64,000 nucleotides of DNA, taken from assembly GCA_964016885.1 (NCBI GenBank), contig OZ024743.1:109864001-109928000 (forward strand), written 5' to 3'. A program made the position numbers and the translations under genes. This document shows positions 28,644-29,106 of this stretch, one piece after another. Below the pieces are notes generated by a model, which saw nothing but the letters and a program-made list of their open reading frames with translations, ran no database searches and was not told where the DNA came from. Origin of the DNA: Eledone cirrhosa. Its lineage: Eukaryota. The number at the start of each line of letters is the position of its first letter. The first letter of the stretch is position 1.

Positions 28644-29106
28644 AAATTTCGTTTCATTTTTTCCGTTTATAGTTTTCGGTGCATCTGGCCGATTAACCCA
28701 CTCGATATGCAAACTAGGCTGCTCAGCCGTTAATATGCATAAGGAAAGTATATACTTTCAGACGTTCAATCATCTGACAGGAAGGTATACGTTGCTGACG
28801 ATAGCTAATAAGCTTGAAACTAGTACAGCGTTCCTTTGTCAGTGTTGAACAAACGAGCAACAGTTGTTGCTAGACACTACGGCTTAATACGGGATGTTTG
28901 TTTACAAACACACCGAGCATTATAATAAATGTTCGGTGAATCCATACGTACATATATATATATATGTGTGCATGTATGTATATATATATATATACATACT
29001 ACTGTACGTCTGTATACGTATATGTATGCACGTATACATACTTATATTTAAGTAACAGCCGTACTAAGTGTGGGAAATTATATTTTGTTTCATTTTATCC
29101 GTTTAT
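28644..29106 (+). mobile_element. Diverged solitary monomer of the ~495-bp hammerhead repeat, slightly more than one unit
   Basis: Colinear with the right-arm unit (TAGGCTGCTCAGCCGTTAAT, GGAAAGTATATACTTTC, AAGCTTGAAACTAGTAC, GTCAGTGTTGAACAAA). The start at 28644-28670 recurs at ~29080-29106. Confidence 0.85.
28789..28831 (+). ncRNA. Minimal type I hammerhead ribozyme motif
   Basis: ACGTTG-CTGACGA-T-AGCT-AATA-AGCT-T-GAAA-CTAG-TA-CAGCGT. Confidence 0.8.

What the first reader, a model, noticed from the sequence alone, without database searches (positions are those of the whole stretch)
28644..29106. Old dispersed monomer shows hammerhead covariation and terminal redundancy
Seen: the unit is clearly diverged, yet the ribozyme changes are structure-neutral: core N7 U to C (CTGACGA), loop II AACA to AATA, and a stem I G-U pair replaced by U-G (both partners changed). 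The copy begins and ends with the same ~27-nt segment (AAATTTCGTTTCATTTTTTCCGTTTAT vs ATTTTGTTTTCATTTTATCCGTTTAT) and is followed by (TA)n. Inference: the ribozyme has been under selection, the family is mobile and old, and it was copied from a circular or multimeric template.
Basis: partly seen in the sequence, partly recalled or inferred. Interest (0 to 1): 0.75.

Follow-up and report, generated by a model that had tools for sequence, protein, structure and literature searches.

The report
Truncated Penelope-mobilised hammerhead retrozyme copy
This is one ordinary, shortened copy of a very abundant non-coding repeat that carries a predicted self-cutting RNA motif; its relatives end at two fixed sites like Penelope-type jumping genes, and one of them looks as if it was copied several times over from a single, likely edited and likely circular, RNA.

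Summary
The hammerhead motif, the three base differences and the ~27-nt end repeat are real. But the copy is not an old decayed array unit: it belongs to a sister subfamily (39 relatives at 94-97%), differs from their majority at 7 of 302 sites, none in the ribozyme, and all three changes are subfamily markers. The family has 28,412 hammerhead cores. Copies are not circularly permuted: 63 of 69 3' ends fall at two sites about 59 nt apart, mostly in (TA)n, while 5' ends are scattered and often inverted, the Penelope-like (PLE) 'tail' footprint. The end repeat is a chance 5' truncation of a 1.06-unit copy. Pair-keeping selection acts on the whole folded unit, not specially on the hammerhead. A longer-than-unit template is shown; a ring is likely: one sister insertion alternates two unit types through both arms, and all 8 copies of one type share a cluster of extra G. 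Cleavage, expression and the helper PLE are untested. Verdict: new member of the non-LTR retrozymes. The scan had noted this family's two-end footprint before on other DNA (e1-8665316).

The parts
28644..29106 (+). The copy: 1.06 units of a 420-435-nt non-coding hammerhead repeat, 5'-truncated, ending at the outer fixed 3' site (B)
   Evidence: 39 relatives at 94-97% over 28644-28945 among 40 scored of 1824 candidates
28644..28671 (+). Remnant of the preceding unit (the 'terminal redundancy'); a chance truncation point
   Evidence: 89% to 29079-29106; relatives extend from a few to more than 400 nt further upstream; 1 of 69 arms ends in this bin
28764..28850 (+). Extended stem I that encloses the hammerhead
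   Evidence: fold; RNAalifold; pair counts (98-100% of cells paired in helices 5-8)
28789..28831 (+). Type I hammerhead fold; 6-bp stem I, 4-bp stem II, palindromic 2-bp stem III predicted to need a dimer; predicted cut after 28825; no G10.1-C11.1 pair
   Evidence: sequence; architecture as described for metazoan type I motifs in PMC4209133 (passages); palindrome duplex -6.8 kcal/mol; cleavage untested
28913..28936 (+). 3' hairpin, where most two-sided (compensatory) changes of the family lie
   Evidence: helix 11: 5 of 9 pairs with a change on both sides
28944..29044 (+). Internal TA/TG microsatellite domain, predicted long AU-rich hairpin; ends at the inner fixed 3' site (A, about 29044)
   Evidence: folds; site A holds 31 of 69 sampled 3' ends
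29045..29106 (+). PLE-type 'tail' between sites A and B (about 59 nt)
   Evidence: in 10 of 13 two-armed loci one arm ends at A and the other at B
28190..28630 (.). Neighbour, a separate element: inverted pair of 3' ends of a Neptune-type autonomous PLE family with its own small hammerhead (28347 minus, 28409 plus); the copy sits in the (TA)n behind it
   Evidence: 251 of 253 and 185 of 189 identical to the 3' end of the PLE in L176
41621..51039 (.). One two-armed insertion of the sister (495-nt) subfamily: 14 hammerhead units on minus ending at site A, 5 on plus ending at site B, (TA)n on both sides, inversion at 48382
   Evidence: units differ by about 1 event from each other

Best explanation
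This is a 5'-truncated, 1.06-unit copy of a high-copy non-coding hammerhead repeat (a non-LTR retrozyme) whose insertions end at two fixed sites in (TA)n DNA and were likely written by a Penelope-like (probably Neptune-type) reverse transcriptase, likely running on an RNA ring. Shown: family size, subfamilies, two fixed 3' ends about 59 nt apart, scattered and often inverted 5' ends, read-through of the predicted cut site, pair-keeping inheritance over the whole unit. Inferred: tandem copies are transcribed; hammerheads pair through their palindromic stem III and cut; one- or two-unit pieces are ligated to rings; a PLE protein nicks (TA)n, starts copying inside the RNA at site A or B, and stops at a random point. 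Here it started at B, went once round and stopped 28 nt further on. About 0.9 for the PLE-mobilised retrozyme, about 0.65 for the ring step.
For: 28,412 cores vs 2 control. 3' ends: A 31, B 32, other 6 of 69; 55 of the 63 followed by (TA)n; 10 of 13 two-armed loci are A+B (L085 also looks A+B by eye). This matches the partial tandems, inverted 5' copies, one-sided tail and (TA)n targets of PLEs (bioRxiv 2021.04.23.441226, passages) and the two internal RT start sites that bound the tail in vitro (PMC11167929, parts 1-2 of 4). Autonomous PLEs of this genome show the same two ends and (TA)n flanks (L176, L166). 5' ends: 0 of 69 within 5 nt of the cut site, 46 of 69 arms cross one or more. Ring: L205/L221 has 7+7 hammerhead units alternating a-B-a-B in both arms, both arms starting in an 'a' unit, at A and at B; the B marker occurs 8 times in the genome, 6 there and 2 in L223 in non-alternating order; 8 of 8 'a' units carry the same 14 G in the TA domain against 3-5 in 10 of 10 sister units. 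Young arrays keep one unit length per locus in both arms (L185 493, L189 511, L097 466).
Against: No autonomous PLE with sequence shared with the unit among 50 GIY-YIG loci (150 of 10,596 candidates scored). Self-cleavage untested; the motif lacks the G10.1-C11.1 pair, 8 of 9 Xenopus retrozyme dimers did not cleave, and in the Anolis PLE uncut RNA was the main substrate. Clear period-2 arrays are only 3 of 18 loci and 0 of 7; L181 was picked for its spacing and its terminal units differ from the inner ones by 3-5 events, which points to later local duplication. No A>G excess outside the microsatellite or in the monomer's own lineage (6 of 28 vs 10 of 72, p=0.37). The best ring evidence comes from one locus of the sister lineage, not from this copy.
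Confidence: 0.8

Rival explanations
1. Same PLE-driven element, but the template is a long uncut multimeric transcript of a source array; the hammerhead is a relic of a PLE terminal repeat or cuts rarely.
For: Read-through of cut sites and fixed A/B ends fit equally. Uncut RNA was the dominant substrate of the Anolis PLE in vitro. L223 has a non-periodic a-B-B-a order. The hammerhead is no more conserved than the 5' part of the unit.
Against: No periodic source for L205 in this assembly; identical G clusters in all 8 'a' units would need a pre-edited periodic source; no shared pair-breaking allele in the hammerhead domain (0 against 8 singleton breaks).
Confidence: 0.25
2. PLE inserts one or two units; arrays, periodicity and arm symmetry arise later at the DNA level (slippage, unequal exchange, conversion between inverted arms) or in assembly.
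For: L181 shows identical inner a-B blocks with more diverged terminal units; old array L182 has no period.
Against: L205 has the same alternation in both opposed arms with correct A and B ends and a poly-A run that varies from pass to pass only in the 'a' unit (13-44 against 5); arrays at 6 loci on 3 contigs are 100% identical over 333 nt.
Confidence: 0.12
3. One reading: an old, independently selected monomer from a ring opened at random points, giving permuted copies with short terminal redundancy.
For: More than one unit long; pair-keeping inheritance.
Against: Fixed 3' ends (63 of 69) and no excess of 5' ends at this position; 7 of 302 private differences, none in the ribozyme.
Confidence: 0.03

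Closest known systems
Metazoan non-LTR retrozymes (Cervera and de la Pena 2020, PMC7229834: passages and Discussion read; Li, Clavereau and Pollet 2026, 10.64898/2026.07.22.740005: parts 1-3 of 5 read)
   Same: Non-coding AT-rich tandem units of a few hundred nt, one type I hammerhead per unit, monomers to multimers, PLE proposed as helper, circular RNA proposed as template
   Different: Unit holds a long TA microsatellite hairpin; two fixed 3' ends, two-armed insertions and (TA)n targeting are not described in the parts read; 'octopus' and 'cephalopod' occur 0 times in the 2020 main text (supplements not opened); circular RNA and cleavage are shown there, not here
EN+ Penelope-like elements, Neptune and Poseidon clades (Craig et al. 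bioRxiv 2021.04.23.441226, passages; Frangieh et al. 2024 PMC11167929, parts 1-2 of 4; Cervera and de la Pena 2014 PMC4209133, passages)
   Same: Partial tandems, inverted 5' copies, one-sided tail between two RT start sites, AT-rich targets, hammerhead with palindromic stem III
   Different: No ORF; tail about 59 nt instead of 30-40 (this genome's own PLEs show about 40-65 by eye); no sequence homology found to a PLE terminal repeat
Newt satellite 2 / axolotl and schistosome hammerhead repeats (as cited in PMC7229834 and PMC4209133)
   Same: Dimer-dependent type I hammerhead in tandem genomic repeats
   Different: Dispersed short arrays with PLE ends rather than described satellite blocks; no G10.1-C11.1 pair

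Membership tests
Non-LTR retrozyme | Type I hammerhead core in each unit | tested here: met
Non-LTR retrozyme | Short non-coding tandem units (about 150-1000 nt, low GC), dimers to multimers, no LTR | tested here: met
   unit 420-550 nt, arrays of 1-21 units; no ORF of 150 aa over the copy
Non-LTR retrozyme | Self-cleavage of the RNA | not testable with these tools
   fold only; G10.1-C11.1 absent
Non-LTR retrozyme | Expressed as linear and circular RNA | tested here: inconclusive
   indirect only: periodic two-armed array L205; no raw RNA reads could be examined
Non-autonomous PLE | Variable 5' truncation, partial tandems, inverted 5' copy | tested here: met
   13 of 54 loci two-armed with hammerheads on both arms
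Non-autonomous PLE | Tail on one end only, between two fixed 3' sites | tested here: met
   63 of 69 ends at A or B; 10 of 13 two-armed loci A+B
Non-autonomous PLE | Sequence shared with the terminal repeat of an autonomous PLE | tested here: inconclusive
   none in 50 loci, a small sample of 10,596 candidates
Canonical metazoan type I hammerhead (PMC4209133) | Helix I 6 bp, helix II 4 bp, helix III 1-2 bp with palindromic loop | tested here: met
Canonical metazoan type I hammerhead (PMC4209133) | Conserved G10.1-C11.1 pair | tested here: not met
   stem II opens with A-U flanked by U and U in all 40 rows of A1
LTR retrozyme (plant type) | Type III hammerhead in LTRs with 4-bp TSD | tested here: not met
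   type I motif, tandem units, (TA)n flanks

The most novel reading that the evidence does not exclude
A Penelope-type enzyme reverse-transcribes ribozyme-made RNA rings, including two-unit rings, from two start sites in opposite directions at one DNA break, and ADAR edits of the single template molecule are frozen into every pass; G000:C1:125.825-125.834 Mb (L205/L221) is a direct genomic record of this long-proposed rolling-circle step, and editing feeds the family's sequence evolution.
Probability: 0.55. Interest if true: 0.75.

Novelty: new member of a known kind. Interest (0 to 1): 0.48.

Why it matters
The copy itself is one of tens of thousands. The family matters because papers read here propose, but do not show, that animal retrozymes are copied from circular RNA by PLE enzymes. 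Its fixed A/B ends tie it to the PLE start sites mapped in vitro, and the alternating two-armed insertion gives a concrete template, start sites and candidate enzymes (intact-looking 844-1096-aa PLE frames) for a direct test. Five literature searches listed no paper on such a family in cephalopods or on genomic evidence for ring copying; the library is partial and supplements were not read.

Tried and rejected
Rfam scan of the window: nothing at gathering score. Sequencing runs: no RNA holder listed; laying contigs of 4 runs of unknown kind gave family variants but nothing on ends, strand or expression. First core pattern was one base short and found only 16 deletion variants. A Pfam id recalled from memory was not in the library. 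Helper PLE by DNA homology: none in 50 loci; a 20-nt look-alike near the L171 PLE is not convincing. Target-site duplication of the copy cannot be read because both flanks are TA microsatellite. Pile-up of 5' ends at the cut site (linear cut monomer as template): rejected, 0 of 69. Circular permutation: rejected. A>G excess in the non-microsatellite part: not found (1 of 15 and 2 of 7 locus-wide variants). In the block next to the microsatellite the array lineage shows 11 A>G of 23 distinct inherited alleles against 11 of 85 private (p=7e-4; A>G vs T>C 11:3, p=0.057), but tolerance of G-U pairs predicts the same bias and polarity is by majority, so this is only suggestive. Helix 4 was mis-registered and corrected. 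Order of events along the tree was not reconstructed, so the path between G-U and U-G through A-U and U-U rests on tree shape alone. The core columns of alignment A1 are invariant by construction (copies were found by the core pattern).

Full report
Setting. The window is G000:C4:109,864,001-109,928,000 of a 3.0-Gb animal genome, rich in TA and CA microsatellites. I take it for an octopus-like cephalopod from a recalled SINE resemblance and from earlier notes; no call established the species.

The observation. 28644-29106 aligns at about 74% to the 495-nt array unit at 41621-51039. It is a 435-nt unit plus a 28-nt repeat of its start. The architecture (6-bp stem I, 4-bp stem II, palindromic 2-bp stem III) is that described for dimer-dependent metazoan type I motifs (PMC4209133, passages), but the usual G10.1-C11.1 pair is missing. 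Rfam gives no hit.

Not a decayed array unit. A genome search with the copy returned 39 other places at 94-97% among 40 scored of 1824 candidates; the array unit returned 40 places at 100% in 6 loci. The core pattern occurs 28,412 times against 2 for the control. A tree of 38 units from loci taken in genome order shows two ladders of subfamilies, one leading to the array type and one to the copy's type, each with young near-identical arrays. The copy differs from the majority of 29 relatives at 7 of 302 positions, none in the hammerhead proper. The three 'covariations' are therefore subfamily markers, each a single inherited event.

Selection on structure. In alignment A1 (40 rows) the stem I pair in question is U-G in 20, G-U in 15, A-U in 2, C-G in 1 and unpaired in 2; 7 pairs show two-sided change, 5 of them in a 3' hairpin (the tool warns that related rows can beat its shuffles). 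Alleles shared by 3 or more rows keep the pair in 13 of 14 cases against 15 of 38 singletons (p=6e-4); part of the structure came from these same rows, so this leans in favour. The hammerhead is not significantly more conserved between subfamilies than the rest (5 of 45 vs 47 of 257, p=0.29), and the 5' part equals it. Selection appears to act on the whole folded unit during copying.

Ends. I mapped arm ends for 100 hammerhead units in 54 loci from the first 21 Mb of C1. Of 69 3' ends, 31 are at site A, 32 at site B about 59 nt downstream and 6 elsewhere; 55 of the 63 run into (TA)n; in 10 of 13 two-armed loci one arm ends at A and the other at B. The window's own array is such an insertion. 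For 5' ends I fetched 69 of the first 73 listed of 687 B ends of the array lineage: they scatter over the unit, 0 of 69 lie within 5 nt of the cut site, 46 of 69 arms cross at least one hammerhead, and 1 of 69 falls in the bin of the copy's own 5' end. So copies are not permuted and the 27-nt redundancy is a chance stop. This is the PLE footprint: partial tandems, inverted 5' copy, one-sided tail, (TA)n targets, with the tail bounded by two internal RT start sites.

Helper. The genome holds many GIY-YIG elements (150 scored of 10,596 candidates). Those inspected mostly have a C-terminal endonuclease behind a CxxC linker, which I read as Neptune-type by eye, with frames up to 1096 aa and the same two ends in (TA)n. 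One such family's inverted end pair lies directly upstream of the copy. None of 50 loci shares sequence with the unit beyond separate insertions of it, so the helper is inferred, not identified.

Ring or multimer. A linear cut monomer is excluded as the usual template. For a ring: L205/L221 carries 7 units per arm, alternating two types that differ by about 8 events while like types differ by about 1; both arms start in type 'a', one at A and one at B. The B marker exists 8 times in the genome: 6 here, 2 in L223 in the order a-B-B-a. Against: period 2 is clear in only 3 of 18 arrays and 0 of 7; L181 was chosen for its spacing and shows signs of later local duplication; slippage may have multiplied some of the G; A>G excess is absent outside the microsatellite and in the copy's lineage; a periodic source may be missing from this assembly.

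Comparison and verdict. It works like, and on the testable features is, a non-LTR retrozyme with the insertion marks of a non-autonomous PLE. Cleavage and circular RNA could not be tested. Searches listed no description of this family; supplements were not read and may list cephalopod cases. The scan had already noted what appears to be the 422-nt subfamily with two ends 59 nt apart (e1-8665316) and similar families in this genome; those notes are not counted as support. The flagged copy is ordinary; the family is a good test bed for the ring-copying step. Interest 0.48.

Noticed in passing
L205/L221 (G000:C1:125,825,500-125,833,400) and L223 (C1:178,816,700-178,824,100): Two-armed insertion alternating two unit types in both arms, with a shared cluster of extra G in all 8 units of one type; the second type occurs elsewhere only in L223.
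   Followed up: yes
L161, L162, L166, L169, L170, L172 and L167, L173, L177 (3' regions): Two Neptune-type PLE families carry a hammerhead-like motif whose core reads TTGAAAA instead of CTGANGA (a U3-A8 pair in place of C3-G8), with stem II and a palindromic CCGG stem III.
   Followed up: no
window 28190-28630: Inverted pair of Neptune-type PLE ends with a small hammerhead; its stem II is also flanked by U and U, as in the retrozyme.
   Followed up: partly
window 29108-29215: Another (TA)n-associated element follows the copy; 100 of 108 identical to the sequence behind the PLE in L176 and seen behind L093 and L122.
   Followed up: partly
window 41120-41345 and about 34263: Inverted repeat with a further hammerhead-like motif (CTGAAGA...GAAA), also seen in L163 and L176 flanks; probably the end of another PLE family.
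   Followed up: no
window 4854-7400 and 9876-14341 (minus): Broken LINE-type frames with RVT_1, Exo_endo_phos and zf-RVT matches.
   Followed up: no
L181, L117, L187: Arrays with period-2 (L181, L117) and possible period-3 (L187) unit variants; L182 is an older array of at least 21 units without period.
   Followed up: partly
runs X4, X5, X6: Runs labelled as three other organisms hold 1-3 low-depth contigs of the unit; contamination or stray DNA is not excluded.
   Followed up: no
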